IMG/VR virus record: IMGVR_UViG_3300020473_000020
Coordinates: 32,001-96,000 of that record
Length of the DNA: 64,000 nucleotides
Direction: 5' to 3' (one strand)
Origin: a virus
The position numbers were made by a program, and so were the translations under genes. Of the stretch, positions 11,828 to 60,486 are shown piece by piece. Below the pieces are notes generated by a model. That model was given only the letters and a program-made list of their open reading frames with translations. It had not been told where the DNA came from and searched no databases. Position 1 is the first letter of the stretch; each line of letters begins with the position of its first letter.

Positions 11828-11957
11828 GGTAGTTATCCTCATTTGTCTCAATCACACCGTTGTACAATTATTTCTGTGTAGTACAACTACAGTGGTGTTT
11901 TTAAATTTGTAAACTTTGCAGCCACTCTCAATAGCGACTGCTAATCATGTTCGAGTA

Positions 11958-13736
11958 TTAGTTGCAGCTCTCGAATAAGCCACCAACAGTAAGTTTCTTA
12001 CCGCTGTGACGTGCACTAACGTCTTCTTCTGACAGCTCAACCGAGTCAGTAGTAACTTGGCCGAATTGCTTCATAAGAGTTTCAGTTAAAGAACCAGCAC
12101 GTGAACGAGTTGGTGCAGACTCAGAAACCTTTGCTTTAGCAGCAGCTTCGTCTACAGAATCGTCTTCATCGCTGTCGTCGTTGTCGATACCGTCAACGTC
12201 GTCTTCATCTTCGTCGTCATCGCAGTCTTTACCTTCAACCACTGTGTGTTCAGTAGTTGCAGTAGTTGCTGTAGTTGCAGCAGACTCAGCTACAGTGCCA
12301 CCCGATAGACGAGTTAACATTGCGCGAGCTTGGTCTTCGCCGAATGACTCAAGCATTTCTGCTACGATGTCGTTCGGTGCATTAGTTTCAGCAGCTAGTA
12401 CTGCAACTTCCGCTTCGAATTTTTGCTGACGTAGAGACTCAGCCATGTGCTCAGTACGCTCGATTAGTGCTTCAACTTGAGAAACAGTACCTAGTTCTAG
12501 GTAAGCTTCTAATAGGTCAGTTGCTTGCTCTAATTCAACAGGCGTAGCTACAGCTTGGTAAGCTTCTAATAGGTCAAGGGCAGCGTTGATTTCTTCAACA
12601 GTACCTAGCTCTGCGTAAGCTTCTGAAACGTTCGATGCTTCTGCGATAGCGTTCTCGCCGCCATCAAGTAGCTTTTCTGCAACGTCCATAACGCCTTCGA
12701 TAGCTTCAACAGTACCTAGTGCTTGGTAAGCAGCTAGTTGCTCTTGTACAGACTCTAAAGAACCCGCTTTTTCAGTTAAGTCGCCGTGTGCTGTTTTCAT
12801 GCTGTTGAACTGTTCGAAAACAGTTGAAATTGCTTCAACAGAACCAAGCTTCTTGTACTTAGTAAGTTCTTCATTAACTGCATTGAAGTTTTCTACTTTA
12901 GCTGTAAGTTCAGCTACAGTAGCTGTCAATGTTTCGTTAGTGCCACTTAGTGCCTCATTCTCTGCGTAAGAAGCAGTTAAGTCGTTTTCAACTTGTGCTT
13001 TTTGACGCGCAAGAGCTGAGATAGTAGCAGCAGTATCAGTTGCGCTCATTTCTCTTTCCTCAGAAGTGTTTTTTGGGTCAGTGGTTACCTGTTCAGAGTC
13101 CGCACCTTCACCGAGCAGTGATGTGTGGATCTTAGAGGCTTCCATATCTAAACTTTCGACTAATTTTGGAATAGCAATAGCCACGCCCTGCACGCGAACA
13201 AAGTCAAAGGTCTCTAATTCAAAAGACTCTTCGTCGATGATTGGTGCGCCGTCACGTTTTTCATTGCGGAAACCGCCGTAGCCTCGGCTAGATACAGGAA
13301 ACTGTACCCCGCCTCGAAGGTAAGCGTTTAATGCCCGTCCAGATGGAGTGTTCAAGACAAGGATTTCGCCCATGCCAACACCTTGATCTTCATCGATCCA
13401 CAGACGAGCCACGCGGTGACTTGCTAGACCTTGAAGAAGTGCTTCATCGTCAAGCTTCTGGGAGTGACCAATGGTACCCAGCATAGTGCCGTTTGCCATT
13501 GCTTCACTGGTACGCTCGATAGCCTTTTCCCAAAGTTTGCGAGTGTAGAAGCGGCCGTTACGGGATTTCCCGTCGACTAAAAAGAAAGGACCAACCACGC
13601 GGGCTAGTATATTCTCACCATCAACCACACCAGCATTTGGAGAATCATCAGGGATAGAAATATCTTTCGCCTCATGAATCTCGTACTTTGCTACAGGCAT
13701 TTCAAACGCATCAACGAATAAATCTCGTTGTGACAT
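11958..13736 (-). CDS. prohead protease (T4 gp21-like) fused to scaffold region
   Basis: SRNGRFY, GTIGH, ASH, LNTPSG, VSSRGYG, FELETFDFV; coiled-coil repeats and acidic C-terminus. Confidence 0.85.
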   Translation of the reverse strand: MSQRDLFVDAFEMPVAKYEIHEAKDISIPDDSPNAGVVDGENILARVVGPFFLVDGKSRNGRFYTRKLWEKAIERTSEAMANGTMLGTIGHSQKLDDEALLQGLASHRVARLWIDEDQGVGMGEILVLNTPSGRALNAYLRGGVQFPVSSRGYGGFRNEKRDGAPIIDEESFELETFDFVRVQGVAIAIPKLVESLDMEASKIHTSLLGEGADSEQVTTDPKNTSEEREMSATDTAATISALARQKAQVENDLTASYAENEALSGTNETLTATVAELTAKVENFNAVNEELTKYKKLGSVEAISTVFEQFNSMKTAHGDLTEKAGSLESVQEQLAAYQALGTVEAIEGVMDVAEKLLDGGENAIAEASNVSEAYAELGTVEEINAALDLLEAYQAVATPVELEQATDLLEAYLELGTVSQVEALIERTEHMAESLRQQKFEAEVAVLAAETNAPNDIVAEMLESFGEDQARAMLTRLSGGTVAESAATTATTATTEHTVVEGKDCDDDEDEDDVDGIDNDDSDEDDSVDEAAAKAKVSESAPTRSRAGSLTETLMKQFGQVTTDSVELSEEDVSARHSGKKLTVGGLFESCN

Positions 13737-13764
13737 GCGTTACCTCATTAGTTCAATTAAAAAT

Positions 13765-14475
13765 CTAAGCCTTGCTTAGTCGAGTTTCAAACTCTTGTAC
13801 AAAACTTAACTCATTTTCATCCATTGTACAATGGTGCAGTGTGCTTTGTACAACATTAATGTAATTTTCTGAACAGCCTGCTTCAAAAAATGCTGAGTTA
13901 AGCGCATTCGGATGTGTCAGGCAAAGAAGCATTTCTAGCTCATCTTCGCTGAGTGACACGGCATTAGTCTCAACAAGCATTTCACCGTCGCTTTCGTTCC
14001 ACCAACGTTGCTCGATCTCAAGCAGGGCAGGTACCACGTGATCCATCATGATACCCAAGTCACGTTGGTCTGCCATCGGCTGGTACGTTTCGTTCTCGAT
14101 GTACAGGTGCGTACGCATGCTGGCCACTGCTTTAAGTAGTGTCTCGCGTAGCATCTTAGATGACTTGGTACCGCTCGACGTAATACGAGAAGCTAGGAAG
14201 CGTCCCATTTGACGGTGCATGCGCTTACCTTTAGTCGACTTGTGGTACTTAGATAAACCTTTCTTGTACGACTTACGGTTTTTACGCCAGCCTTTCTTTG
14301 CGTTCTTAGCTACCTTGGCGCTTTTGGCACCACGGATAAGACCTGAACGGCGCTTAATAAACTCATGTACTTCCTCTTCTGGAATTGAGTCCATCGGTGT
14401 ACTAATGGAGTAGCCTAGCTCACTTAGGAAACTAATGCGGTCTGCTTCTTCGTTAATACGCATCATAGTGGTCAT
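13765..14475 (-). CDS. putative head assembly/core protein
   Basis: lies between portal and protease; very basic central segment. Confidence 0.5.
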   Translation of the reverse strand: MTTMMRINEEADRISFLSELGYSISTPMDSIPEEEVHEFIKRRSGLIRGAKSAKVAKNAKKGWRKNRKSYKKGLSKYHKSTKGKRMHRQMGRFLASRITSSGTKSSKMLRETLLKAVASMRTHLYIENETYQPMADQRDLGIMMDHVVPALLEIEQRWWNESDGEMLVETNAVSLSEDELEMLLCLTHPNALNSAFFEAGCSENYINVVQSTLHHCTMDENELSFVQEFETRLSKA

Positions 14476-16349
14476 TGTGGGGTGTCCTCGCTTTCTTCGG
14501 TACTATTGGCAACTGGTGCCGTTGCTTCTTGGTTTTTAGCAGCAATCGTGTCGGACTCATCGAAAACTTGCATATCTTTAGGTGCAATGTCTTCTTTGAT
14601 AGATTCACCCGCTTTTTCTTCGCTGTTAGTTCGAACTTCGTCGTAATTGATTTCATCGCCCACGTCGGCCGCAGCTTCTTGGAGCTTAGCTGCTAGTAGA
14701 CCAAAGGCTTCTTGCATGATCGCATCTTGTGGGACGTCGGCGTTTGTAGCGTCACGACCTTTCTTTTCCGAAGTAGGGCGTTTCTTCTTGCCGTCTGACC
14801 TCGGGTCAGGCTCATCCTCGTTAAGGTCTTCTGACAATGGAAGGATGAATGAACGGTTACTACCAAATAGAGCCATTTGGCGACGCATCCAGTCCGATAG
14901 TGCTTCAAAGTCAATACGGCCATTGAACTGTTCACTGTCGTTAAGTTCAGTCATGAACATCCAAAGGTCAGATACCATCGCGTTTACTTGGTCAGCAAAT
15001 TCAAGCTTATCTAACTCATCAATGTTTACTACTTCATTACGGAATACGACGTGAATATCTTGCGGTAGTGCTTCAATGCCTTTCGTTAGAAGGTGAGCCA
15101 TAGCCAGCTGTTTAGCACCTGATGCTAATGCAGCTTGAATAGACTTGATCTTGCGAAGGTAACGCGCGTGGCGCTTCAAGAACTCGCCTTTAGATTCGGC
15201 TGACTCGCTGCCGAATAGTAACTCTGGTGGAACCCCGATAGTTGCACAGATTGTTGCGCGGTTATCACGGATGTTGCTGAGCATGTCGTCAGCTGTACGG
15301 TTTTCTTTTACGTCGACTGTTTGCAGGTTGCCTTTATCACCCATAACAGGCACACACTTAGTACGGCCAGCGGTTGATAAGATCGAGCCTACGTCTGACA
15401 AGTCACCTGAGCGCTTATCTAATGCAGTTTTATTGTTTAATAGTTGCTCGTAGCGACGTGAAATTGCAAAAGCTTCTTTAGGGTCTGTTTGCGCAGGCAC
15501 TGTCACGCCTACGATAGAACCTGTGCTAAGCTGATGTAGCTTACTAGCAGGTACTAGCGACTCTAACAGCTGTAATTCTTTCAGTTTTGACTGTACGCCA
15601 TATAGCAAAGGACGACCAACACGTATGTAGTTCGGCAGCTTCTTCTTTAGGGCTTCAAGGTCTTTGTCGTTTACGCCGAACTCTTCACCAAGGTCAATAC
15701 GCAGTTTACTTCGGCCAAGGGCAAAGTGAAGGTGCGAACTCGCTGGCTTAATAAGAATACGGTTAGTCTCGCGGACAAGATACTTTTCAGGAAGACCATG
15801 GCGGTATAGCGCTACAATGTTCTCTTGCTTAACATCATCGCTGATAGCCACTACACCTTCTTCTGGGTCTAACTCCATTGATAACGTGTAGTCCCCGTTA
15901 CTGAGTAAGTCGAGGGTAATGTCTTCGAAGATTTGGTCAATGTTCAAGCGGCGTTGAAGTACTTTAAGCTCTTCGTCAATCTCTTTGACTGGGCTTTGTA
16001 GATGTACGATCTCACCCGTCATAATATCGGCGACAAGTGTCTCGTCGGCGATAAGGTTTAACAGTGCATCAACTAGGTAATACTTCTGAACATCCTTTAG
16101 TGACTGCGAATAAGCCCGTTTAGTATCGGCCGCTTTTGTAAAGGCTGATACCATGGCCATTGCAGCTGAACCGCCGAGTGAAGCACGGTCAGCTTCTTTA
16201 TCGACCATTTGGTCACGGACGGCATCACGGAACTTGCTCAGGTGCTGGTTTACGAGGTCACCAGCTTGGTCGTTTGTGCTCGCGAATGCGTTACTCTCAT
16301 TAATAGAGTCAAACGTCGGCACATTTTTGGATGAATACAACTCAGGCAT
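14472..16349 (-). CDS. portal protein (T4 gp20-like)
   Basis: synteny; ICATIGVPPELL and RYLRKIKSIQ helices; acidic tail. Confidence 0.75.
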   Translation of the reverse strand: MPELYSSKNVPTFDSINESNAFASTNDQAGDLVNQHLSKFRDAVRDQMVDKEADRASLGGSAAMAMVSAFTKAADTKRAYSQSLKDVQKYYLVDALLNLIADETLVADIMTGEIVHLQSPVKEIDEELKVLQRRLNIDQIFEDITLDLLSNGDYTLSMELDPEEGVVAISDDVKQENIVALYRHGLPEKYLVRETNRILIKPASSHLHFALGRSKLRIDLGEEFGVNDKDLEALKKKLPNYIRVGRPLLYGVQSKLKELQLLESLVPASKLHQLSTGSIVGVTVPAQTDPKEAFAISRRYEQLLNNKTALDKRSGDLSDVGSILSTAGRTKCVPVMGDKGNLQTVDVKENRTADDMLSNIRDNRATICATIGVPPELLFGSESAESKGEFLKRHARYLRKIKSIQAALASGAKQLAMAHLLTKGIEALPQDIHVVFRNEVVNIDELDKLEFADQVNAMVSDLWMFMTELNDSEQFNGRIDFEALSDWMRRQMALFGSNRSFILPLSEDLNEDEPDPRSDGKKKRPTSEKKGRDATNADVPQDAIMQEAFGLLAAKLQEAAADVGDEINYDEVRTNSEEKAGESIKEDIAPKDMQVFDESDTIAAKNQEATAPVANSTEESEDTPQ

Positions 16350-16612
16350 GATCGCCCCCTGTATTTAGTCCTAATAACAGCATAGTCATACTGTAGTGTC
16401 TCCTAACAAGTGTTTAGGCTGACTGTCTCAATTCAGCGTCTCAATCAGTGTGGGTTAAACATCGCAATGGTGCGACGCCACTGGGGGAGTTTATCAACAG
16501 ATTCGTTGTACAACAAGCTGCAACGTAAAGTTTTTAGGCTCGTCAGGCCGCGTGAATACTGGGTTTGCTAGGCTTTTGCAGGTAGGTGAAAATTAAATCA
16601 TTGTACAATGTA

Positions 16613-16641
16613 TTGCGCCGCAGGGGTTTTCGTGGTTTAAT
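16613..16641 (+). promoter_or_regulatory. sigma70-like promoter, TTGCRNYGCAG class
   Basis: TTGCGC-N17-TTTAAT with TTGTACAA just upstream at 16601. Confidence 0.6.
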
Positions 16642-16683
16642 AGCTTCAACTTAACCGATTAGCAACCTCCCACGGAGAACTTA

Positions 16684-16908
16684 ATGACCGCACAAACTGA
16701 AATTCAAGATAACCGTTATACTTATGGTTCTGACTGGCCTGCTGGCTCTGTAATTGAAATGTTCGGTACGCAGTATCGAATCCGTGAGAACAACGGCACT
16801 TCGGGTGAGGTCGAATACTTAGATGGTACCTTTGCAACAAGTAACTTCTCATGGTGGTACGCCGATGAGAAGGCTGTATTGGTCTCTCGCCCTGAGCAGG
16901 CTAAATGA
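16684..16908 (+). CDS. hypothetical protein
   Basis: GGAG RBS, downstream of promoter. Confidence 0.6.
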   Translation: MTAQTEIQDNRYTYGSDWPAGSVIEMFGTQYRIRENNGTSGEVEYLDGTFATSNFSWWYADEKAVLVSRPEQAK

Positions 16909-17111
16909 CCATGTCTGAGAAAGAAGTGTCAATTATCACGGGTACTCTGCGCGGTGATTTGTATGCTGTTTGGTACTACATTGCTGGGAACGGTTCGCAC
17001 GTTCATCCTTGTGTGCGGTTACTGTTCGCACCGTTTGTCGCTTATACGGTGCTGACCATTGGGTTTGCTACTATCCTAGACCACCTCTTTAAAGGTCGAC
17101 CTGAAAACTAG
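16905..17111 (+). CDS. small membrane protein
   Basis: ATGA coupling, hydrophobic segment. Confidence 0.5.
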   Translation: MTMSEKEVSIITGTLRGDLYAVWYYIAGNGSHVHPCVRLLFAPFVAYTVLTIGFATILDHLFKGRPEN

Positions 17112-17171
17112 ATGCGCCCGCACCTAGGCGCGGACGACTTTACTCTGGCGAGCTGCTAGGCAGCTCCGACA

Positions 17172-17471
17172 CTACCTAGCTACTAAAGCGTAGCACTTGT
17201 TATTACTTTTCGAGCACATATAGCGCATGCCGTTGCTATATTCTTCTAGCCATAGCTGTTCGTTGTTCCGTGCCGACATAAGTTTACTAACGTAAAAGGT
17301 TCCTTCTGTTGTGATGACTTTGGCTCGTGCATTGCCATACTCATCAGTGATACCTTCGGAGCTTACAAACGTACCGATGCTCTCTTGCCCCATGTAATGT
17401 GGCGGTGGTTCACTGCACCCAGTTAATGCTAACGTTGTTGCGATGGCTAAGATTGTTGCAAGTTTTCTCAT
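17172..17471 (-). CDS. lipoprotein
   Basis: signal peptide with LTGC lipobox. Confidence 0.7.
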   Translation of the reverse strand: MRKLATILAIATTLALTGCSEPPPHYMGQESIGTFVSSEGITDEYGNARAKVITTEGTFYVSKLMSARNNEQLWLEEYSNGMRYMCSKSNNKCYALVAR

Positions 17472-17494
17472 TCTTTTATGTCTCTATGTCTCGT

Positions 17495-17806
17495 TTAGTT
17501 GATATACGGTTTGCTGCTTTGTTCTTCTAGGACTTTACGTGCGTAAGCAGTTGCCTCTTGTATGTCCTCAATCGCGTGAGATTGCAGGTCAAAGCTAATA
17601 ACAGGTATTCCGTTGACTTCACCACGTTGGTAAGCGTGATAGAGGTAAACAATACCTGCCTCGTCGCTGTCGTCGAAACCTTCTAGTTGCTCGATAACAT
17701 GCGTTAAGCTCCTAAAGTTTCCCTTTTGCTCGAAGTGCTGGCCGTGGCTGTTCGATACCTCGTAGCATTCTTTTAGTACAGCAATGATGCGTTCGATACA
17801 TTTCAT
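17495..17806 (-). CDS. hypothetical protein
   Basis: 103 aa ORF following the transporter. Confidence 0.55.
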   Translation of the reverse strand: MKCIERIIAVLKECYEVSNSHGQHFEQKGNFRSLTHVIEQLEGFDDSDEAGIVYLYHAYQRGEVNGIPVISFDLQSHAIEDIQEATAYARKVLEEQSSKPYIN

Positions 17807-17809
17807 TGT

Positions 17810-19102
17810 TTAAGCCTTAGCTGTTGCGTTTGGGTCGTTATAGACATCACGGTCTAGCTTACCTTCTGAGTGAGCCACAACCATCGTCACGGCGCTATCA
17901 CCCGTTAAGTTTACGGCTGTTCGGATCATGTCTAAGATAGCGTCCACAGCCATGATCATAAGGATCCCTTCTACAGGTAAACCTACTTGTGAGAAGACCA
18001 TTACGAGTGTCACGGTACCAGCGCCTCGAACCGCTGCTGTGCCCATGCTAGCAAGCGTGGCGGTTAGGACTACCATGCCAAGCTGCTCGAACGTTAGCGT
18101 TATACCAAACGCTTGCGCTACAAAAATCGTGGCAACACCCTGCATAATACTGGTGCCGTCCATGTTTAAGGTTGCACCGAGTGGTACGTTAAACGAGGTT
18201 ACCGACTTACAGACACCCATACCTTTTTCTAGAACGCGTTGCGTCACTGGGATCGTAGCTGAGCTTGATGCAGTCGAGAAACCGAAGAGCCAGACTTGCG
18301 GCATTTTCTTAAAAAAGTTGATTGGATTGATGCGCGCAAAGACAGCCATATAAGCAGGGTAGACAACTAGCATTTGGATAGCGAGTGCAGCGACAACGAC
18401 AAAGAAGTAGCCCATTAATGGTGCAAGCGCGTCGACGCCTTTATCAGCTATTGTTTTTGTCATCATCATGAATAGGCCATACGGGGCTAATCCCATGACA
18501 GTTTTTACAACAGACAGTGTAATATCGTTGGCGTCTTTAGCTAAGTTCTTTACGTTTTGATTGCCTGTCGCAGCCGCGTGGCCTAATACGGCAATACCTA
18601 TGAAAACTGCAAATACCATAACAGCAATCATGTTTCCCTCTACCATGGATTGTATCGGGTTGGCAGGTATCATGTTCAAAAATGTTTCAACCATCGGCGG
18701 TGCTTGTACAACCTCGACGGTCTTACCTGTAACCTCAGCGTTAACACCCTCACCAACGCCAAAGGCCAGCGCAAGTGCAAGACCCAATGTGATAGCAATG
18801 ACCGTCGTGAGGACGTAACTGGCCATCGCTTTAACTCCCATGCGGCCAGCTTGGCCTACGTCATCATTATCGGCGACTGCGAGCATGATGCCTAGAAAAA
18901 CGAGAGGTATAACCATCATCTTCATCAGGCCAATGAAGCCCTGACCCCCAACATAGAACAAGCCGTCAAGAATGTATGTTCGGAATACTGAACCCTCTGC
19001 GGCTAGACCTGTTGCTTGAAGGAAAACACCCACTACCACTGCGGCTAGTAAGGCTATAAGTATTTGTGCGGTTAAGTTACCGCGTATCTGGATCCCACTC
19101 AT
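17810..19102 (-). CDS. dicarboxylate/amino acid:cation symporter (DAACS, GltP-like)
   Basis: FSTASSSATIP, PLGATLNMDGT, DAILDMIRTAVN; multiple TM helices. Confidence 0.92.
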   Translation of the reverse strand: MSGIQIRGNLTAQILIALLAAVVVGVFLQATGLAAEGSVFRTYILDGLFYVGGQGFIGLMKMMVIPLVFLGIMLAVADNDDVGQAGRMGVKAMASYVLTTVIAITLGLALALAFGVGEGVNAEVTGKTVEVVQAPPMVETFLNMIPANPIQSMVEGNMIAVMVFAVFIGIAVLGHAAATGNQNVKNLAKDANDITLSVVKTVMGLAPYGLFMMMTKTIADKGVDALAPLMGYFFVVVAALAIQMLVVYPAYMAVFARINPINFFKKMPQVWLFGFSTASSSATIPVTQRVLEKGMGVCKSVTSFNVPLGATLNMDGTSIMQGVATIFVAQAFGITLTFEQLGMVVLTATLASMGTAAVRGAGTVTLVMVFSQVGLPVEGILMIMAVDAILDMIRTAVNLTGDSAVTMVVAHSEGKLDRDVYNDPNATAKA

Positions 19103-19425
19103 TAGTGTAGTACCTTATTTTTGTTATCATCGTTCGATTGATTATGTTGTTCGTCGGTTTGGCTTTCGGCCTGTTCTTTTGCACGTTCTCTCGATTCTTC
19201 AAGGTCAGCTAAGCGCTTTAAGCGCTTCATTGCAGCCACCTCGCGTTTTATCCACTTAGGCGTAGGCACTGCATCAACAGCGCTTGCAATAAGACCCGTG
19301 ATGAAGTTAAGTGCTGCGCAAAGAAAGATAATGGCGAAGATTGGAAGTAGTATTGTGCACGATGCCGTTAGGAATAGCGCAAGGTTACGTGCGCGCCTGT
19401 GCTGATAGCGGCGTCTATAGTTCAT
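19102..19425 (-). CDS. membrane protein
   Basis: start likely MNYRRR; long hydrophobic segment. Confidence 0.5.
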   Translation of the reverse strand: MNYRRRYQHRRARNLALFLTASCTILLPIFAIIFLCAALNFITGLIASAVDAVPTPKWIKREVAAMKRLKRLADLEESRERAKEQAESQTDEQHNQSNDDNKNKVLH

Positions 19426-19753
19426 CTTTGGCCTTTGCTTTAGGGTAATCGGTTTTGACCTTTGGAGAGTGACCCTGTAGCACCTGTGAAGCACCCGTCG
19501 TCATCTTAAAGCCTTCGCTTTGTGCCTCGATCCATTCTGGTGTGGCCAGCTCTCGGTGAAACTCGTTGTGCCATGTTCCACCTTTACGATTAGGACTACC
19601 GTCTGCAAAAAGAGCAGGGGTGCAAGCTGAACACAACTTCTCGCCTTCTTCTATGGCGTCGCCGAACCAGCGCTTATGGGCGCTAGCACGGTTGAACATC
19701 CCCAGCGCTGTATTTTCAATCGTGTGACAACGGTCGCAAATATAAAGGCTCAT
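19415..19753 (-). CDS. zinc-finger hypothetical protein
   Basis: CDRC...ENTA...LCSAC. Confidence 0.55.
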   Translation of the reverse strand: MSLYICDRCHTIENTALGMFNRASAHKRWFGDAIEEGEKLCSACTPALFADGSPNRKGGTWHNEFHRELATPEWIEAQSEGFKMTTGASQVLQGHSPKVKTDYPKAKAKDEL

Positions 19754-19804
19754 TTAAGTCTCTCTGTAGATCAGAAAAGGGCACAGTGCGTGCCCTTGTA
19801 GTGT

Positions 19805-20488
19805 TTAAAGTTTGGTTACATCACCAGCGATACGGTCACGTAGGCCAGTGAAGAGACCTGCACAAGCGTTGTATAAGCCCTCAAACAATGAGACTAGCGG
19901 GTCATACGCCGTGTAGAAGATTGCGAATGGCCACATACCCCACCAGTTCATGATATAGGCAGGCATAACTTTTGGCTTAACAACATTCACAGTCTTGCCC
20001 TCAACAAGTTGGCTCTCTTGGAAGACTTGTGGTAGGCGACCACCTTTAAGTTCTGACTTGTACATAGTTGAGAATTTTGAATAGATGTACTCATTCAGCT
20101 CGGCAACGTAATCATGTGTCGCCGCATTAAATTTTGTTTGTTTATCGAAGTCGGCCTTGAACTCTCGCGCTTTCGCTTTATAACGCGACATCATGAAGCC
20201 CCAATTTATGAGCGCAACAAAGAACCCGACAAGAATGTAGGCACCCAGTGTTAAGAGTCCTCTAAACATAAGGTTTTCAGCGTACCACGCATTAAGGGTA
20301 GGGTTGCCATAGGCAAATATACCGAAGGCCAGCACTACAACGAGTACGCCCCAGCTTTTTGTTAAGGCTTTAACATCGTCGGAATACAAGGCAAATAGGA
20401 TAACGAGTGATATAGCCATATACACCCAAAAAGCTATACCCGTCGCGAAGAAGCTTACGCCCGTCAATAGAAGGTCTAATACTATCAT
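19805..20488 (-). CDS. multi-pass membrane protein
   Basis: several TM segments; start likely MIVLDLL. Confidence 0.6.
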   Translation of the reverse strand: MIVLDLLLTGVSFFATGIAFWVYMAISLVILFALYSDDVKALTKSWGVLVVVLAFGIFAYGNPTLNAWYAENLMFRGLLTLGAYILVGFFVALINWGFMMSRYKAKAREFKADFDKQTKFNAATHDYVAELNEYIYSKFSTMYKSELKGGRLPQVFQESQLVEGKTVNVVKPKVMPAYIMNWWGMWPFAIFYTAYDPLVSLFEGLYNACAGLFTGLRDRIAGDVTKL

Positions 20489-20569
20489 TATCTCAAGTCT
20501 CAATTAATTTTAATATTGTGTTGTACAAGGTAATGCCTTGTACAACTTATTAAGACTTGGGCTAGCTGA

Positions 20570-22483: not shown

Positions 22484-22546
22484 GTAGTCTCACTCTCATT
22501 ATTGCCCTACGGCAAAAGTGCCGCCCAAAGGCAGCACCAGTCTCAA

Positions 22547-22744
22547 TTACTTTTGCTTTGGCATCCCAGCTGGACGCCTTGGCTTACGTGGCTTGCGATT
22601 TTGCATGGCCTTTCGGGCACCTTCTCGGCGGCGCTGCATTTCAATGTCAGACATCTTCACGCAGGTGCCACGGAAAAGCTTAAACCCCTTCGGGCACGAC
22701 TTTTTCACTTCACCACGCTTACTTACTTTTATCATCGGATCCAT
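22547..22744 (-). CDS. small basic prohead-core-like protein
   Basis: CPKGFK...CVKMS...RRREGARKA resembles T4-like prohead core proteins; GAGG RBS. Confidence 0.5.
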   Translation of the reverse strand: MDPMIKVSKRGEVKKSCPKGFKLFRGTCVKMSDIEMQRRREGARKAMQNRKPRKPRRPAGMPKQK

Positions 22745-22788
22745 AACGAATACCTCTAGTTAGATAAATAACTCAGTCAGCTCAGTCT

Positions 22789-23826
22789 CTAAACATCAAA
22801 TTCCATATCAAAATCAGCTAGCGGGTCGTCCTTACCACCTAGCGTATCGTCGCCCCACAAGGCACTTTCTTCATCGGATAACGGAGCATCCGCTATCAAT
22901 TCAATTTCATCAGGGTCTATGCGTTCTACGTCGTCATCTGTTGGGTTTTTTGGTGCAAGAAAGTCACTCAGATCAAGCGAGCCACTTTCTCCCATTTCCT
23001 CGGCCATGACGAGTTCCCATTGGTCTTCATCTAAGCCCGCACATGGTACCCCATTCGTGGTATCGTCATCAGGAAGTGCCAACGTGGCTGACTCCTGCTT
23101 TTGTTCTAGTTTCGGAGTTGATGCAGACTGCTGCTTTCGGTGTTCTTCACGGGCTTCCTCTACAACGGCCTTGTTAGATTCAACGCGAGCCTTTTCGGCT
23201 TCCTTACGTCCTTCTTCATCTAGCAGGTCATTCGGAAGATGCTGTGGGTTAACCTCTGGCACTTCCACGTCTTTATTCGTTGGTATAGTTTGACCAAGCG
23301 TTGATACACGGCGGAAGATGTCAGTAACAACTTCGCGTGTGCTGTGGTCGCCTTCATCACCGTCAGAATTGCTGCCACCTGACACAAGGTCTGTGATTTG
23401 CTCTTGCAACTCGCCAACGTTAACAGACCACATAGACTCTTTAACGTACTTCTGAGACACCTCAAGCGATGTACCGAGCAACTTATACATGTTAGTTAGC
23501 TCTTTCGTCGTCATCTGCGCCAAACGGTCAGGCGTTGCAAGCTGCTGCTCGATCATGTTCATTGCACGGTCTAATCTGCCTAGTCGCTTAATGTGCGACT
23601 CAGACATACCAAGAATTGAGAGTTTAATAGCAAGGTCTTTAAGGTCATTGGCGGGCAATGCCTCTTCACGTCCTCGATCAATGATGTCTACCGCGTCGGT
23701 TAGCGCATGACCACTGAACTTATGGTCATGAAGGTCAACCGTTTTGTATAGCTGTGCCTGTTCATCGGCTGGCGCTTCAAGGTCATTGTTGATAACGACT
23801 TTTAGGTGTGAATTGTCATCACTCAT
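22789..23826 (-). CDS. hypothetical protein, candidate terminase small subunit
   Basis: upstream of terL; helical N-terminus and acidic disordered tail. Confidence 0.3.
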   Translation of the reverse strand: MSDDNSHLKVVINNDLEAPADEQAQLYKTVDLHDHKFSGHALTDAVDIIDRGREEALPANDLKDLAIKLSILGMSESHIKRLGRLDRAMNMIEQQLATPDRLAQMTTKELTNMYKLLGTSLEVSQKYVKESMWSVNVGELQEQITDLVSGGSNSDGDEGDHSTREVVTDIFRRVSTLGQTIPTNKDVEVPEVNPQHLPNDLLDEEGRKEAEKARVESNKAVVEEAREEHRKQQSASTPKLEQKQESATLALPDDDTTNGVPCAGLDEDQWELVMAEEMGESGSLDLSDFLAPKNPTDDDVERIDPDEIELIADAPLSDEESALWGDDTLGGKDDPLADFDMEFDV

Positions 23827-23843
23827 AAATCAATCTCTCGATA

Positions 23844-24185: not shown

Positions 24186-24191
24186 TGGTGC

Positions 24192-24611: not shown

Positions 24612-24686
24612 AATACTGCCTCTCATAACAAAAAACGGGTCACCCTAAGACGACCCGTTCTAAACTTGAAGCAGTTAACGTATATG

Positions 24687-26675: not shown

Positions 26676-26842
26676 AATTTTTTCTTCTAGTAAATTCGTT
26701 GTACAACGAATTGTTAGTCTCAATTGATTTTTTCATTGCTTAGTCAAGCAATCGCCGTTATTATACCCATCTAAAATTGATACGCAATCCCCTCTGGGGC
26801 AGTGATTTACTAACCGATACAAGCCTATAGAAGAGCACCGAT

Positions 26843-27073: not shown

Positions 27074-27075
27074 CA

Positions 27076-28107
27076 ATGGCACGTAAACTTAAATTTGATA
27101 TTTTAGCATTCCTTCAACTGCATGGTATTGAGTACCGTACATCTGGTAAAAACTGTGCAAAGGGGCATGCCGTCGTCTCTTGCCCATTTTGTGAGGATGA
27201 GGGTGACCCTGACCCGTCGATGCACATGGGTATCGAGCTTAAAAGCGGTAACTGGGGTTGCTGGCGTTCAAGTCACCACCGTGGTAAGAAACTCGCAAAT
27301 CTCATGGCTAAGTTGACGGGTATTAGCTACAAAGAGGCCGCCGAATTAGTGGGCGATGCCTCAGCTTCCGTTGATAAGGAAGAATTTGATTCACTTGCAG
27401 CTTGGTTGCGAGGTATTGAGGACGAGAGCGGCGACCCTCTTGAGGTTAAGCCACCTAAGACTATCCCTATGCCTAGTAGCTTTCGTCCTATTACGGATAG
27501 CCGATTCTCTCAGCCTTATAGAACCTATTTAAAGAAAAAGCGTGGCTTCCTGAGCCGTGATATAGATAAGGTTATCGAGACCTACGACTTACGTTACTGC
27601 TCGCAGTCTGGGAGCTGGAACAAGCGTCTTATCCTACCTATCTATCGTGATAAGAAGCTCGGCACCTACACTGGCCGCTCCATCGACCCTAACGAAGAAC
27701 TTCGTTATAACTCGCTAGGTAAGGAAAAGTCACCTGTCAACATTAAAGAAACTATCTACGACTTTGATGGCTTACTGAATACAACGGGGCGTGCACTGTT
27801 CGTCGTGGAAGGTCCACTAGACATGCTCAAGATGGATTTCTATGGAAGACCCTATAACTGCCGTACTACGTGCTTATTCTCAAAGACTGCAACCCCTGAG
27901 CAAATCGCGGACTTATACCTCGTACACAAGAACTTTGCCTTTGTGATCGTATTACTCGATGCGGGTGAGTCCAAATCAGCTAGCGTTCTACTCGATGAGC
28001 TATCGCTTATACCGAACCTTCGTTCTATGGAAATCCCATTTGAAGGCGTAGACGACCCCGCAGACCTTTATCCTAGTGAAATCGCAGAAATGTGCGCAGA
28101 AATCTAA
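27076..28107 (+). CDS. DNA primase (zinc finger plus TOPRIM)
   Basis: CPFC...CWR, RLILPI, TGRSI, VVEGPLD, LLDAGE, DDPADL. Confidence 0.85.
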   Translation: MARKLKFDILAFLQLHGIEYRTSGKNCAKGHAVVSCPFCEDEGDPDPSMHMGIELKSGNWGCWRSSHHRGKKLANLMAKLTGISYKEAAELVGDASASVDKEEFDSLAAWLRGIEDESGDPLEVKPPKTIPMPSSFRPITDSRFSQPYRTYLKKKRGFLSRDIDKVIETYDLRYCSQSGSWNKRLILPIYRDKKLGTYTGRSIDPNEELRYNSLGKEKSPVNIKETIYDFDGLLNTTGRALFVVEGPLDMLKMDFYGRPYNCRTTCLFSKTATPEQIADLYLVHKNFAFVIVLLDAGESKSASVLLDELSLIPNLRSMEIPFEGVDDPADLYPSEIAEMCAEI

Positions 28108-28120
28108 TGAGACAATCACC

Positions 28121-29046: not shown

Positions 29047-29084
29047 GCACGTCTATCACTTAATTAGGCACAAAAAAGCCAGCG

Positions 29085-29333: not shown

Positions 29334-29428
29334 GATAGGCTCCTGTTTCCATACAGACCTCACAGACCTTTCCGTCGCGAGTATTGTAGTACGGTGTGTT
29401 AAATAGCTGATTTTTGCATTCGGGACAC

Positions 29429-30327: not shown

Positions 30328-30395
30328 GATTGTCTCGTTTTCTTGTTCTAGTTCGCCTAGTGTATGTCGTGGTACACGATAAATCAAGCCCTTAT

Positions 30396-32030: not shown

Positions 32031-32287
32031 CTGGTTTAGACCTTACTGTCGAGCTGTTTAGCATTGTCGAGGATCTTTTTTAAATCGGCCTCAATCTCAG
32101 GCTTTAGCTCGTGGTTTTGGAAATCTTTCATAGAAAGCCTTATAAGGTTACGCGTTGCCAAGTATCTCTTGTACAACGGTATAGTCTCAATTGACCTCCA
32201 TGTTACTTGATATTTTCTACTAAATAAAGACGAAAGTGCCTGCACGCTAGTAAACTAGGGCAGGCACTTTTAGCTGTTGGGATGCTT

Positions 32288-38399: not shown

Positions 38400-38467
38400 A
38401 TAGGCTGTCCTCCATTTCTCTCAAGTCTCGATTTAGGGGAGTCCTAAGTGACTCCCCCTCGTGCAGT

Positions 38468-44558: not shown

Positions 44559-44968
44559 AGCATTACTCCACAAGTAAATAAATTTACGTCTCTTGTACCT
44601 GCAAACAGGCACGGTTGTCTCAATCTCAATTCACTACCGTGATTGCAGGTAAAGCCCTAGAAAGTCACAGGTAAGTGAACTTATTGTACAACGCTACGGG
44701 GCAAAGAGAAAGCCAAAAGGGGTGGTGCGTGAGGTGGTGGGGTGCCAGATAAACGACAACCCGCACACATACGTGTAGCGGGTTGTTAATATATAATAAG
44801 ACTTTTAGTGTTAAAGCTAACCTTGTGCCCTTTAAGCCATTGTGACCTAAAGGTTTTGCTTATCTCGGTTTGCAGGAGCATAGTAGCAAAAACAGATCCC
44901 TGCTTCCACCCTTAATTCACTTATTTTCCTATGTTTTTGTACAATGCTTTCGAGGTCTTGTACACGAC

Positions 44969-47907: not shown

Positions 47908-47910
47908 GAC

Positions 47911-52536: not shown

Positions 52537-52551
52537 CTTAGCTTCCCTTTA

Positions 52552-54632: not shown

Positions 54633-54870
54633 TGTTTTGTACAACGATTTTGCAAGCGTAATCTGTGAGCAGGCCGTGCACGCACCATTGTGCATGCAAT
54701 GGCTTTAGATGTTGACTGGCCATCACGCTAAGTCCTTGGGCTGTAGTCAAATATGCGCGCAATTCGGCGGTTAGTACTACACAAGTTGGACTGTTTCGTG
54801 TAGAGTGGCGCGATGCAAGGTGGCCTAAGTTGCTACCAACAAGAATTGAGACTTAGATACTGGGCATTTT

Positions 54871-57060: not shown

Positions 57061-57102
57061 GTTGTTGTACAACGATTATTAATAAATGAGACTGAGATAC
57101 TA

Positions 57103-58014: not shown

Positions 58015-58141
58015 TCCTGCCAATGGGTACCGTACTAATAGAGGGCAGGTTTACAGCCAGCCCCTTGTACAATGAATTGTTGATACTAGCTTATAGAGTA
58101 AGCTAATGCGCTGATGGCGCTTAAATATAATTGAGACTTTG

Positions 58142-59566: not shown

Positions 59567-59588
59567 ACAGGCGACATCTAAAAAACCA

Positions 59589-59983: not shown

Positions 59984-60023
59984 CTTTCTAGATCTATCTT
60001 TCTAAATATACTTTCTAAATAAA
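59984..60023. repeat. three AT-rich 13-14-mers, candidate DNA unwinding element
   Basis: CTTTCTAGATCTAT, CTTTCTAAATATA, CTTTCTAAATAAA in tandem. Confidence 0.65.
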
Positions 60024-60083
60024 CTCTCCACCTTTTGAAATCGACCTACAGCCCTTGCACTGTCTGCGTTCTCCACTTTTTCA

Positions 60084-60177
60084 TTAATATTCGATCACGC
60101 ACTTTTTAATATTCGATCACGCACTTTAGAGGGTTCGTTAATATTCGATCACGCACCCTTAATATTCGATCACGCAC
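60084..60177. repeat. four identical 19-bp iterons (replication origin)
   Basis: TTAATATTCGATCACGCAC at 60084, 60106, 60138 and 60159, upstream of rep. Confidence 0.9.
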
Positions 60178-60486
60178 TTTTTGCCAGAGAAACACCCTCC
60201 AAATTAGCGTTATCTTTTGACCGTTTTGCTACCAAGCTTTGTGGGCTTCATTTCGTGAGATCCACAAGGAGTTGTACAATCCTTGACTAGCAGCCTGTAT
60301 AACTATTGTGCTTTCTGCAAAGACCATCCATTTTTTACTGGAATTTTAGCGCGTTAGTGGCTATTATCGGCCAGCTTTGTGATCGACCTGATCGCTGAGC
60401 ACTTAATGAGACTTGAGATACAAATTGGGCGAAGACCCAATAATGAGTGTTAAAGACCTTGAGGTCTTTTAATGTGAGACTATTAT

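What the first reader, a model, noticed from the sequence alone, without database searches (positions are those of the whole stretch)
11845..60412. Strand-oriented leader motif A(T/A)TGAGAC upstream of core genes, sometimes in hairpin loops
Seen on the sense strand in front of capsid (11845), portal (16425 and 16438), the membrane/transporter operon (20497), terL (22540), ligase (26717), the AAA operon (44617), SNF2 (54845), exonuclease (57085), dnaB (58130) and rep (60405). It is often followed by TGAGATA. Distance to the start codon ranges from about 4 to 90 nt, and the capsid gene has a separate GAGG, so it is not simply a Shine-Dalgarno. At the portal it is the loop of GCTGA-ATTGAGACAG-TCAGC (16418-16437). 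At the AAA operon it is in the loop of a long stem (about 44596-44651). Inference: an RNA-level operator or processing site, or a phage-specific promoter element.
Basis: partly seen in the sequence, partly recalled or inferred. Interest (0 to 1): 0.7.

Follow-up and report, generated by a model that had tools for sequence, protein, structure and literature searches.

The report
Phage-private leader word before start codons
A family of giant marine phages places its own short, one-stranded word (AAWT-GAGAC) just before the start codons of about a fifth of its genes, where a ribosome-binding site normally sits, although the word cannot pair with ribosomal RNA and the host does not use it.

Summary
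A[AT]TGAGAC occurs 18 times in the window against 4.1 expected. In the whole 138-kb contig it has 21 intergenic sense copies and 0 intergenic antisense copies.

It is the long form of a compact signal, A-A-W-T-GAGAC-W. GAGAC is the most enriched 5-mer upstream of start codons in four contigs of this phage lineage: 41 vs 3.3, 42 vs 2.8, 22 vs 1.4 and 79 vs 7.1 expected. It is not enriched on the Pseudoalteromonas host chromosome (2 vs 1.5).

The signal peaks 6-7 nt before the AUG. It can also lie upstream of a true Shine-Dalgarno (SD) or between the SD and the AUG, and it is often tandem. It marks genes that have their own leader, not translationally coupled genes. Orthologous leaders keep it while their flanks diverge. 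It pairs with the anti-SD no better than random sequence. Assembled metatranscriptome contigs run through three sites.

Best reading, at about 0.5: an SD-independent mRNA signal for translation initiation, read by a protein. A promoter role is disfavoured, and a nuclease target is not excluded. The "hairpin loop" claim is mostly not supported.

The scan has no note of it on other DNA.

The parts
11845..11852 (-). ATTGAGAC in the capsid leader, 17 nt before ATG 11827, with a canonical GAGGA between the motif and the ATG
   Evidence: The last 35 nt of the leader are identical in the 89%-capsid relative. An RNA-library contig (10450-13061) spans it.
16425..16445 (-). Two ATTGAGAC copies (16438-16445 and 16425-16432) in the portal leader, joined by a weak 5-bp inverted repeat
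   Evidence: They lie in a block of about 60 nt that is nearly identical in the relative while both flanks are unalignable. The fold is not better than shuffles.
16398..16403 (-). GGAGAC, 8 nt before the ATG (16389) of a 15-codon uORF whose stop overlaps the portal ATG at 16349
   Evidence: The relative has a 20-codon uORF ending in the same ATGnCTGA overlap.
20497..20504 (-). ATTGAGAC followed by TTGAGATA, 8 nt before the ATG of gene 19805-20488. No canonical SD.
22540..22547 (-). Distal ATTGAGAC, 2 nt before a 9-bp hairpin followed by TTTTGCC, in the terL leader
   Evidence: z = -2.0. The relative keeps the motif, a hairpin with different stem bases, and TTTTGCC.
22487..22492 (-). Proximal TGAGAC, 3 nt before the terL start (22483)
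   Evidence: Conserved in the relative (TGAGACaacGTG).
26717..26724 (-). ATTGAGAC in the ligase 5' leader, mostly unpaired between two hairpins (its last three bases pair weakly in the minimum-energy fold), 41 nt before ATG 26675
   Evidence: The relative keeps TTGCGT-N16-TATAAT, the 5' hairpin, the motif and a TTGTACAA-apex hairpin. RNA-library contig 26305-26743 reaches 19 nt upstream of it.
26760..26765 (-). TATAAT box of a sigma-70-like promoter (with TTGCGT 16 nt upstream) that would place the ligase motif about 30 nt inside the transcript
   Evidence: Sequence. Conserved in the relative. The start-site position is inferred, not shown.
28106..28113 (+). AATGAGAC 7 nt before the ATG of the plus-strand gene 28121-28738, inside a mostly minus-strand region. 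The orientation follows the local gene.
32184..32191 (-). Sense-strand ATTGAGAC followed by TTGTACAA, in the region upstream of gene 31356-32030. Its target start is not resolved.
44588..44632 (-). AAA-operon leader: overlapping TTGAGAT/TTGAGAC copies (8-mer at 44617-24) in the 20-nt loop of a two-part stem, plus GAGAC at 44588-92. ATG 44558 has its own GGAG.
   Evidence: (z = -1.17). No ortholog of this leader was found in the relatives.
54845..54852 (+). ATTGAGAC 18 nt before the SNF2 helicase ATG
57085..57092 (+). AATGAGAC followed by TGAGATA, 10 nt before the exonuclease ATG
   Evidence: The ortholog keeps AATGAGAC at 9 nt.
58130..58137 (+). ATTGAGAC 4 nt before the dnaB ATG. No other SD-like word.
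   Evidence: The ortholog keeps GAGACTTTGATG while the bases upstream differ.
60405..60420 (+). Distal tandem AATGAGAC-TTGAGATA in the rep leader
   Evidence: A tandem GAGAY pair is conserved in the relative.
60476..60480 (+). Proximal GAGAC, 6 nt before the rep ATG (60487)
2274..2288 (-). Tandem GAGAC-N5-GAGAC; the proximal copy is 6 nt before ATG 2267
6569..6573 (-). GAGAC 5 nt before ATG 6563, downstream of a terminator-like hairpin
17480..17492 (-). Tandem GAGAC-N3-GAGAC, 8 and 16 nt before ATG 17471
19758..19762 (-). GAGAC 4 nt before ATG 19753, about 12 nt after a hairpin and T-run
   Evidence: RNA-library contig 19643-20116 spans it.
30332..30336 (-). GAGAC 4 nt before ATG 30327
38425..38429 (-). 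GAGAC followed by TTGAGAGA, 25 nt before the ATG of the 1278-aa gene, with GGAGGA between

Best explanation
A(A/T)TGAGAC is the long form of a compact, strictly sense-oriented mRNA signal with consensus A-A-W-U-GAGAC-W. It is private to a lineage of giant Pseudoalteromonas phages. It is transcribed as part of 5' leaders and intercistronic spacers, usually in an open stretch just after a hairpin. It is set in register with the start codon: mostly 6-7 nt before it, less often 0-1 nt, and often with one or more extra copies 6-10 nt further upstream. In about half of the genes that carry it, it is the only purine-rich word where a Shine-Dalgarno would sit, yet it cannot pair usefully with the 16S tail. 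I therefore read it as a Shine-Dalgarno-independent translation-initiation signal. It would be a docking word for a protein, either ribosome-associated or phage-encoded, that recruits, positions or gates the 30S subunit on cistrons that must initiate on their own. Translationally coupled cistrons do without it and use ordinary SDs. What is shown: the statistics, orientation, spacing, leader specificity, conservation, absence from the host, lack of rRNA pairing, and presence inside assembled RNA-library contigs.
For: (1) Enrichment and strand. The window has 18 copies vs 4.1 expected. The contig has 21 intergenic-sense and 0 intergenic-antisense copies. G010 has 32 vs 4. Sense:antisense counts of the top 8-mer in upstream spacers are 13:2, 16:1 and 12:0 in three phages.
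(2) Position. With a start rule that ignores SD words, GAGAC is the top 5-mer in -25..-1 (41 vs 3.3) and peaks at -11 (11 of 45). Pooled over four contigs, 186 of 891 called genes carry it within 35 nt; the proximal copy is at d = 6-7 in 53 genes and at d = 0-1 in 22.
(3) Not an SD by pairing. Anti-SD duplex energy is -3.4 for GAGAC-only leaders (n = 46), -3.3 for random 20-mers and -6.8 for canonical leaders. G010 gives -3.5, -3.6 and -7.0. The host-genus 16S tail is canonical. A full 16S from the same genus has no GUCUC, and its best complementarity equals that of shuffled motifs.
(4) Independent of the SD. The proximal copy lies upstream of a canonical SD in 31 genes, inside the SD-AUG spacer in 13, abuts the AUG in 24 and stands alone at d = 4-9 in 87. 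In the 72% relative it mostly sits 13-24 nt upstream with an SD between.
(5) Leader-specific. It is present at 51 of 209 genes with a spacer over 50 nt, against 9 of 148 coupled genes (p = 2.7e-6), while canonical words show no bias (84/209 vs 70/148). G010 gives 29/119 vs 12/133.
(6) Lineage-private. 200 kb of host chromosome gives 2 vs 1.5 expected in 174 genes. The whole host assembly has 361 copies of the 8-mer vs 496 for the reversed control.
(7) Selection. Of 45 ortholog pairs with concordant N-termini, both members have it in 7, only this phage in 2, only the relative in 1 and neither in 35. Footprints in the capsid, portal, terL, ligase and rep leaders keep proximal and distal copies while the flanks diverge.
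(8) Tandem copies. GAGA recurs within 6-12 nt at 34 of 156 sites vs 8 of 346 coding controls (p = 4e-12). G010 has an (ACTGAGAC)x5 array ending 1 nt before an ATG.
(9) RNA. In metatranscriptome run X1, contigs at 1,670-2,343x over the capsid operon, against 5-110x nearby, run through the 11845 site. Other contigs run through the 19758 and 26717 sites.
Against: No reader protein was found. S1, CsrA, cold-shock, RegA, RegB, sigma-70 region 2 and T4 gp55 searches were all negative on the phage contigs. The RegA and RegB searches had no positive control, and the gp55 search was a single-sequence phmmer. The only S21 signal is sub-threshold. The RNA evidence comes from assembled contigs, which cannot show 5' ends, strand or processing, and the two raw-read runs laid 0 reads. 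Gene starts come from my own crude caller (first ATG in the first quarter of the longest ORF), so some distances, especially d = 0-2, may rest on wrong starts. The motif precedes both replication and structural genes, so no regulatory logic by gene class emerges. A GAG core in register with the GAG of AGGAGG keeps a weak-SD contribution possible. The more distant Rhizobium-phage relative shows little of the signal (5 vs 1.4 in 50 kb), so the lineage is narrow and four contigs are few.
Confidence: 0.5

Rival explanations
1. It is an ordinary but weak ribosome landing pad with no special reader. A three-base GAG Shine-Dalgarno sits in an open, A/U-rich context that suits ribosomal protein S1, and upstream copies act as standby sites next to structured leaders.
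For: The GAG of the motif is in nearly the same register as the GAG of AGGAGG: GAGAC peaks at -11, AGGA at -12/-11 and GGAG at -12/-10. 87 of 186 proximal copies stand alone at d = 4-9. The motif is somewhat more open than its flanks (34/51 and 41/61 sites), and a more structured zone lies 15-35 nt upstream. In the terL, ligase and rep leaders, distal copies sit in unpaired stretches beside hairpins.
Against: Pairing energy equals that of random sequence. Host genes run through the identical pipeline do not use the word (2 vs 1.5). The positions flanking GAG (A at -3, T at -1, AC after GAG) are conserved although they cannot pair with the tail. 13 copies sit between a real SD and the AUG, and 31 lie upstream of a real SD. 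Coupled genes use canonical words but almost never this one.
Confidence: 0.17
2. It is the target of a sequence-specific endoribonuclease, phage or host. Cutting at or next to the word would process polycistronic RNA or inactivate translation-initiation regions at a set time, on the logic I recall for T4 RegB acting on GGAG.
For: Like the RegB targets as I recall them, it is a short word concentrated in translation-initiation regions, single-stranded, sense-only and virus-specific. Flexible placement upstream of, at, or downstream of the SD and tandem copies suit a cleavage site as well as a binding site.
Against: No RegB homolog was found, though that search had no positive control. The sharp register with the AUG (d = 6-7 and 0-1) is not needed for a nuclease. 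Assembled RNA contigs run through three sites at high depth without a break, though contigs cannot exclude partial cleavage. The word precedes capsid, portal and terL as well as replication genes, so no class of mRNA is singled out.
Confidence: 0.13
3. It is a compact DNA promoter element with no -35 partner, in the manner I recall for the T4 late promoter box. It would be read by host RNA polymerase with a phage factor, and transcripts would start a few bases downstream, giving very short or no leaders.
For: It is virus-specific, strand-specific and compact. It is absent from coupled genes, often lies 10-25 nt after a terminator-like hairpin and has an A/T-rich stretch just upstream (A+T 0.76 at -5..-1). 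A spacing of 6-7 nt to the ATG would fit leaderless transcripts. The T4-type box TATAAATA is rare (5, 12 and 12 copies on both strands across three contigs).
Against: Canonical SDs lie only 1-4 nt after several copies (capsid; the gene starting at 85779; -8676; relative site 29773) or just upstream of them (13 genes), so a start 6-7 nt downstream would discard the SD. No partner element exists within +-55 nt. Capsid-part RNA depth (1,670) is not above that of the gene upstream (2,343), and contigs extend 19 to 1,209 nt upstream of three copies. In the ligase leader a conserved TTGCGT-N16-TATAAT lies about 36 nt upstream of the motif. No sigma-70 region 2 or gp55-like protein was found in about 750 kb of lineage DNA. 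None of the 15 consensus promoter-like sites in 10000-29999 falls on a motif copy.
Confidence: 0.1
4. It has no function of its own. It would be a remnant carried along by duplicated or shuffled regulatory cassettes (promoter plus stem-loop units), as described for PeSLs in T4-type phages.
For: Intergenic regions are modular: a TTGTACAA element, a hairpin, then the motif, with TGTACAA upstream of GAGAC in 20 of 21 and 21 of 22 spacers that hold both. PeSL cassettes are known to spread by recombination (abstract of PMC2839356).
Against: Only 8-10 nt are shared between sites, and the surrounding bases are unrelated. Orthologous leaders keep the word and its distance to the ATG while the flanks diverge. 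The same word is used on non-overlapping DNA of a fourth contig.
Confidence: 0.05

Closest known systems
Shine-Dalgarno sequence
   Same: Purine-rich and on the sense strand. It most often lies 6-7 nt before the AUG, with its GAG in about the same register as the GAG of AGGAGG.
   Different: It has no useful complementarity to the canonical host 16S tail. It is not used by host genes. Its non-pairing flanks are conserved. It can sit beside, upstream of or downstream of a true SD. It is almost absent from coupled genes, which do carry SD words.
Translational operators of phage global regulators (T4 RegA sites) and the T4 RegB nuclease target GGAG; properties recalled, not tested here
   Same: They are short, virus-specific, single-stranded words inside the translation-initiation regions of many phage mRNAs, read by a phage protein.
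   Different: The sequence is different. No RegA or RegB homolog was detected (those searches had no positive control). The word here precedes both structural and replication genes, whereas I recall RegA and RegB acting on early mRNAs.
CsrA/RsmA binding sites (GGA in hairpin loops, one site over the SD); properties recalled
   Same: Multiple copies per leader with one overlapping the ribosome-binding region, and occasional presentation in a loop (the AAA-operon leader).
   Different: The core is GAGAC, not GGA. Most copies are in open stretches, not loops. No CsrA domain was found in the phage contigs. The word is not enriched in host leaders.
SD-independent translational enhancers (the T7 gene 10 'epsilon' element, A/U-rich S1 enhancers); recalled
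   Same: A leader element that would raise initiation without canonical SD pairing.
   Different: As I recall, epsilon was proposed to pair with 16S rRNA. Here no 16S complementarity beyond chance exists. The word is G/C-containing and sequence-specific rather than merely A/U-rich.
PeSL regulatory cassettes of T4-type phages (PMC2839356; abstract read)
   Same: Repeated modular intergenic units that combine a promoter-like element and a stem-loop in a large myovirus genome.
   Different: As described in that abstract, PeSLs are promoter plus terminator. The element here is a further, downstream, sense-only word tied to the start codon.
Compact late-promoter box of T4-type phages (TATAAATA); recalled
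   Same: An 8-10 bp virus-specific word without a -35 partner in front of many genes.
   Different: See the promoter rival: SD geometry, RNA contigs and the absence of a gp55-like factor argue against it.

Membership tests
Shine-Dalgarno sequence | Lies about 5-10 nt upstream of the start codon | tested here: inconclusive
   87 of 186 proximal copies stand alone at d = 4-9, but 37 are at d = 0-3 and 62 are further upstream.
Shine-Dalgarno sequence | Base-pairs with the 3' tail of 16S rRNA | tested here: not met
   Duplex energy is -3.4 for GAGAC-only leaders, -3.3 for random sequence and -6.8 for canonical leaders, repeated on G010. The tail sequence is canonical.
Shine-Dalgarno sequence | Shared with the host's own genes | tested here: not met
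   Host chromosome: GAGAC 2 vs 1.5 expected in 174 genes, with AGGA/AAGGA dominant.
Promoter element (sigma-70 type or T4-late type) | Lies upstream of the transcription start and of the SD | tested here: not met
   13 copies lie between the SD and the AUG, and several have an SD 1-4 nt downstream. RNA-library contigs extend 19-1,209 nt upstream of three copies. Contigs cannot show starts, so the test is indirect.
Promoter element (sigma-70 type or T4-late type) | A fixed-distance partner (-35), or a dedicated sigma or activator | tested here: not met
   No informative position beyond -7..+11 in 137 pooled sites. No Sigma70_r2 and no gp55 by phmmer. The contigs are incomplete.
T4 RegB target / RegA operator | A homologous nuclease or repressor encoded by the phage | tested here: inconclusive
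   PF10715 and PF01818 gave no match in G000, G001 or G002, but neither search had a positive control. G010 was not searched with these two families.
T4 RegB target / RegA operator | Cleavage or binding at the word | not testable with these tools
   This needs 5'-end mapping or binding assays. Only assembled contigs were available.
CsrA/RsmA site | GGA core presented in a hairpin loop | tested here: not met
   The core is GAGAC. G at the base before GAGAC occurs in only 3 of 48 sites in this phage. Mean unpaired probability is 0.51-0.55, only modestly above the flanks. One loop case was found.
Known RNA families (Rfam 15) | A match at the gathering score | tested here: not met
   0 matches on the 64-kb window, both strands.
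Antisense-RNA target | A phage RNA with an exposed complement (GUCUCAWU) | tested here: not met
   27 of 29 intergenic 7-mer copies are sense. 0 of 9 tRNAs hold the 6-mer complement, and one tRNA-Asp of the relative holds the 5-mer.

The most novel reading that the evidence does not exclude
These giant phages run a private translation-initiation code. A phage-encoded protein, or a phage-modified ribosome, recognises AAWU-GAGAC at a fixed distance from the AUG. It loads ribosomes onto phage cistrons that have no Shine-Dalgarno at all, which gives phage mRNAs access to ribosomes independently of the anti-SD and of competition from host mRNAs. The tandem copies and the (ACUGAGAC)x5 array would be multivalent docking sites.
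Probability: 0.22. Interest if true: 0.85.

Novelty: new variant of a known kind. Interest (0 to 1): 0.62.

Why it matters
Virulent phages are generally reported to carry stronger Shine-Dalgarno sequences than their hosts (abstract of Hockenberry et al., bioRxiv 10.1101/2021.04.21.440840). Here about a fifth of the genes in a roughly 400-kb phage type carry a conserved word that cannot pair with the ribosome, and the host does not use that word. The word stands alone in the SD slot at 87 of the 891 genes called, roughly a tenth.

If a dedicated reader exists, this would be a virus-private route to the ribosome. That would matter for how giant phages take over translation. It would also give a compact orthogonal initiation signal for engineering.

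There is a practical point too. Gene callers that score starts by SD pairing will mis-rank the starts of these genes, and using the word improves start prediction in this lineage.

The system is testable. Two named Pseudoalteromonas strains, P. umbrosa B95 and P. peptidolytica DSM 14001, have assemblies that carry related phage contigs.

Tried and rejected
**Circular start calling.** My first gene caller rewarded GAG upstream of starts, which made partly circular. I replaced it with an SD-blind rule (onward), and the result held.

**Near relatives in the phage collection.** Megablast of 24 kb found none. The terL tblastn search gave only hits at 45% identity or less.

**Metagenome scan with the capsid alignment.** 288 pattern hits, none a relative.

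**Relative G001 as an ortholog set.** Only 18 reciprocal pairs, too few.

**16S rRNA.** There was no full 16S in the two phage-bearing host assemblies, and only tail fragments were found. I used a full 16S from another genome of the same genus instead, so the complementarity test is on a congener, not the exact host.

**rRNA-pairing enhancer.** Rejected.

**Hidden mini-ORFs behind distal copies.** Rejected: an ATG follows at 4-9 nt in 9 of 79 distal sites vs 38 of 346 controls.

**Antisense small RNA or tRNA.** Rejected.

**Restriction-site avoidance or enrichment.** GAGAC plus GTCTC total 233 in the contig. By my own arithmetic from base composition about 248 are expected, so there is no genome-wide bias.

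**Calibrating the promoter rival on the Rhizobium phage.** Only 6 of 62 annotated starts had a TATAAA/ATAAAT word within 60 nt, too few to use.

**16-mer scan of viral contigs.** 19 hits. 18 showed no sign of the lineage (single matches, 0-1 TTGTACAA), and one led to G010.

**Raw-read RNA runs X20 and X23.** 0 reads laid, so there was no test.

**Consensus promoter and terminator scan.** Promoter-like sites were fewer than in shuffles (15 vs 25.3), terminator-like sites were about as expected (21 vs 18.2), and none of the promoter-like sites falls on a motif copy.

**S21 lead.** 16.5 bits against a cut-off of 27, over the first 25 model positions only. I make no claim from it.

**Literature.** Searches for TTGTACAA + phage returned items that look unrelated to this phage by their titles. 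Pseudoalteromonas + jumbo phage gave 17 papers, 12 listed, none on this lineage by title. GAGAC + Shine-Dalgarno + bacteriophage gave 0 papers. The non-canonical RBS and phage genomes search and Kleczkowskaviridae, with 4 papers, showed no description of this word. I saw listings only, plus the abstracts and outlines of PMC2839356 and 10.1101/2021.04.21.440840. No body text and no supplements were read, and supplements were closed.

Full report
**What the window is.** The window is bases 32001-96000 of a single 138,059-base viral contig that CheckV rates as about 33% complete. It encodes a Gp23-type capsid (PF07068), a family-A DNA polymerase, an NAD-dependent ligase, an SNF2 helicase, a DEAD-box helicase and a 1,476-aa AAA protein. 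No near relative is in the phage collection. The nearest cultured relatives are Rhizobium phages, with terL at 45% identity and capsid at 58%. Closer relatives are:
- a 202.6-kb contig in a Pseudoalteromonas umbrosa assembly (capsid 89%) and a 128-kb contig in P. peptidolytica (72%);
- an IMG/VR contig, G001 (72%);
- a 281.6-kb IMG/VR contig, G010, which shares no nucleotide similarity with my contig but carries the same signals.

G010 therefore covers another part of this roughly 400-kb genome type.

**Checking the observation.** A[AT]TGAGAC occurs 18 times in the window against 4.12 expected, and 0 of 100 shuffles reach 18. I called genes with a rule that ignores SD words: the longest ORF, starting at the first ATG in its first quarter, which gives 189 genes. 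Under that call the contig has 37 copies: 21 intergenic and sense, 0 intergenic and antisense, 8 coding-sense and 8 coding-antisense, with 10.7% of bases intergenic. Orientation follows the local gene. One example is the plus-strand copy at 28106, before a plus-strand gene inside a minus-strand block.

**The real unit.** GAGAC is the most enriched 5-mer in the 25 nt before starts: 41 observed vs 3.3 expected, with a peak at -11 (11 of 45 occurrences). Aligned sites give the consensus A-A-W-T-GAGAC-W. A occupies position -3 in 37 of 48 sites, and G just before GAGAC occurs in only 3 of 48. Coding-sense copies of GAGAC show no flank preference. Pooling 137 intergenic sites from three phages shows no informative position outside -7..+11, so no partner element sits at a fixed distance. 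An unbiased scan of 7- and 8-mers in sense-oriented upstream spacers finds the same two families in all three phages. One is the symmetric TTGTACAA. The other is the one-stranded WTGAGAC(T), with sense:antisense counts of 13:2, 16:1 and 12:0.

**It belongs to the phage, not the host.** The same pipeline on 200 kb of host chromosome gives GAGAC 2 vs 1.5 expected in 174 genes, with AGGA, AAGGA and GGAG on top. The three phage contigs give 41 vs 3.3, 42 vs 2.8 and 22 vs 1.4, and G010 gives 79 vs 7.1 in 380 genes. The whole host assembly holds 361 copies of the 8-mer against 496 for the reversed control. A 50-kb piece of Rhizobium phage RHph_TM30 shows little (5 vs 1.4), so the signal is confined to the Pseudoalteromonas-phage lineage as far as I sampled.

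**It is not a Shine-Dalgarno by pairing.** The host-genus 16S tail is canonical, GGAUCACCUCCUUA. Leaders whose only purine word is GAGAC (n = 46) give a mean duplex energy of -3.4 kcal/mol with that tail. Random 20-mers give -3.3 and canonical leaders give -6.8. G010 gives -3.5, -3.6 and -7.0. A full 16S from a genome of the same genus has no GUCUC. Its best complementarity to 12-base forms of the motif (runs of 6-9 with G-U allowed) equals that of shuffled 12-mers, whose median is 8.

**It is separate from the SD.** Over four contigs, 186 of 891 called genes have GAGAC within 35 nt of the start. The proximal copy falls into these classes:

| Class | Genes |
|---|---|
| Alone at d = 4-9 | 87 |
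| Upstream of a canonical SD | 31 |
| Abutting the AUG without a canonical SD | 24 |
| Upstream of another GAGA word | 16 |
| Upstream with nothing SD-like between | 15 |
| Inside the SD-AUG spacer, e.g. AAGGAAAATTGAGACtATG | 13 |

Spacing is bimodal, with 53 genes at d = 6-7 and 22 at d = 0-1. In the 72% relative the word (AATGAGACTTG) mostly lies 13-24 nt upstream, with AAGGA, GGAG or GAGG between it and the start. Copies are often tandem: GAGA recurs within 6-12 nt at 34 of 156 sites vs 8 of 346 coding controls (p = 4e-12). G010 has five ACTGAGAC units ending 1 nt before an ATG. Distal copies are not SDs of hidden mini-ORFs, because an ATG follows at 4-9 nt in 9 of 79 distal sites vs 38 of 346 controls.

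**It marks genes with their own leader.** Across three phages, GAGAC is present at 51 of 209 same-strand genes with a spacer over 50 nt, but at only 9 of 148 genes with a spacer of 20 nt or less (p = 2.7e-6). Canonical SD words show no such bias, at 84/209 vs 70/148. G010 repeats this, with 29/119 vs 12/133 (p = 0.001) and canonical words unbiased. The word often follows a terminator-like hairpin by 10-25 nt. Where a spacer holds both signals, TGTACAA lies upstream of GAGAC in 20 of 21 and 21 of 22 cases.

**Selection.** The umbrosa phage is syntenic at about 72% nucleotide identity in genes. It gives 61 reciprocal-best pairs, of which I kept the 45 with concordant N-termini and dropped 16. 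Among those 45, both orthologs carry GAGAC in -33..-6 in 7 pairs, only mine in 2, only the relative in 1, and neither in 35. Pairwise alignments show clear footprints:
- **dnaB** keeps GAGACTTTGATG while the bases upstream change.
- **Capsid:** the last 35 nt of the leader are identical.
- **Portal:** a block of about 60 nt holding both ATTGAGAC copies and a GGAGAC is nearly identical between unalignable flanks.
- **terL** keeps the motif, a 9-bp hairpin with different stem bases, TTTTGCC, and then TGAGAC-N3-start.
- **Ligase** keeps TTGCGT-N16-TATAAT, a 5' hairpin, the motif, and a hairpin with TTGTACAA at its apex and different arms.
- **rep** keeps a distal tandem pair, hairpins, and a proximal copy.

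**RNA.** Four runs were laid on window 8000-27999. In marine metatranscriptome run X1 (Logan contigs), the capsid and the 592-aa gene upstream sit on contigs of 1,670x and 2,343x depth, against 5-110x elsewhere. Uniform DNA carry-over would not give that contrast. One contig (10450-13061) runs through the 11845 site, and the upstream-only contig is the deeper one, so the capsid needs no promoter of its own at the motif. Contigs 19643-20116 and 26305-26743 run through the 19758 and 26717 sites. Contigs cannot show 5' ends, strand or partial cleavage. The two raw-read runs gave 0 reads.

**Structure.** Mean unpaired probability of the 8 bases is 0.51 and 0.55, against 0.45 and 0.46 for the flanks. 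34 of 51 and 41 of 61 sites are more open than their flanks, and a more structured zone lies 15-35 nt upstream. In single leaders:
- the AAA-operon stem with the motif in its loop is the best fold but is not significant (z = -1.17);
- the terL (z = -2.0) and ligase (z = -1.8) leaders have stable hairpins, with the motif lying between them, unpaired in terL and mostly unpaired in the ligase leader.

No Rfam family matches the window.

**Candidate readers.** The following searches were negative:
- Sigma70_r2 in G000, G001, the phage contig of G002, and G010;
- T4 gp55 by phmmer against all ORFs of 50 aa or more in the four contigs;
- the S1, CsrA and CSD domains in G000, G010 and G001;
- RegA and RegB in G000, G001 and G002, where neither search had a positive control.

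An S21-like match in G010 is sub-threshold at 16.5 bits against a cut-off of 27. It covers only model positions 1-25, in a 122-aa protein. All contigs are incomplete.

**Reading.**
- The promoter reading is disfavoured by the SD geometry, the RNA contigs, the lack of a partner element and the lack of a dedicated sigma.
- The plain weak-SD reading is disfavoured by the energy equal to background, the conserved non-pairing flanks, absence from the host, absence from coupled genes, and copies lying next to true SDs.
- What remains is an mRNA signal tied to the start codon and read by a protein. I favour SD-independent recruitment or gating of initiation, because 87 genes have nothing else in the SD slot and because the register with the AUG is sharp.
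- A nuclease target, on the logic I recall for T4 RegB, is the main alternative at the RNA level.

**Novelty.** Searches of the held library turned up no description of this word or of this phage lineage. I saw listings only, plus two abstracts.

Noticed in passing
Whole window, e.g. 13795-13853, 20521-20545, 26699-26706; genome-wide: The palindrome TTGTACAA occurs 93 times in the 138-kb contig (about 2 expected for an 8-mer by rough arithmetic), and 106 of its 186 strand-counts are intergenic. The umbrosa relative has 102 copies, and G010 has 149 vs 4 for the reversed control. It often extends to CGTTGTACAACG or CATTGTACAATG. The 5' edge of the highly expressed capsid-operon RNA contig (13829) falls inside a triple cluster. 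The consensus scan reads TGTACA-18-TACAAT there as promoter-like. In the ligase leader it forms the apex of a hairpin whose arms differ between phages. Other first readers flagged it separately.
   Followed up: partly
window 16342-16403 (-): A 15-codon uORF (MTMLLLGLNTGGDHA) is led by GGAGAC, and its TGA stop overlaps the portal ATG (ATGCCTGA). The 89% relative has a 20-codon uORF ending in the same overlap (ATGTCTGA). This looks like translational coupling of the portal gene to a leader peptide.
   Followed up: partly
window 4720-4740, 7660-7680, 8245-8265 and other spacers: A third recurring spacer element, TTGC-N4-GCAG (e.g. GTTGCGGCGCAGC, TTGCACCGCAGC, TTGCATTGCAGC), lies about 13 nt upstream of many TTGTACAA copies. 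A-rich sequence of the form tataaagta lies between the two. At 6600-6625 a similar word is the stem of a small hairpin followed by a T-run. I did not test whether it is a -35-like box or a hairpin.
   Followed up: no
window 26754-26795 (-): A sigma-70-like promoter, TTGCGT-N16-TATAAT, lies in front of the ligase leader and is conserved in the relative together with a 5' hairpin (ATTGC/GCAAT stem, different loops). The RNA-library contig ends at 26743, about 10 nt inside the start I would predict.
   Followed up: partly
G010:C1:141685-141725 (locus L064, about 1685-1725): Five tandem ACTGAGAC units (period 8) end 1 nt before the ATG of a 255-aa gene. This is the most extreme array of the motif.
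   Followed up: no
G010:C1:146265-146633 (L064:6265-6633 +): A 122-aa protein has a sub-threshold match to the first 25 positions of ribosomal protein S21 (16.5 bits, cut-off 27). In the translation its C-terminal part does not look lysine/arginine-rich. It is too weak to call, but I recall S21 lying next to the anti-SD, so a mimic would bear on this finding.
   Followed up: partly
G010 vs G000: The 281.6-kb contig G010 (67% complete) and my 138-kb contig (33% complete) share no blastn match, yet they share both intergenic signals and similar G+C (0.477 vs 0.465). Together they add up to about the size of the 400-kb contig that holds capsid relative P0006. They may be complementary parts of one genome type.
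   Followed up: partly
window 10450-13829: In one marine metatranscriptome the capsid gene and the 592-aa gene upstream are covered about 30-60 times more deeply than the neighbouring portal, terL and ligase regions. The phage was therefore being expressed in that sample.
   Followed up: no
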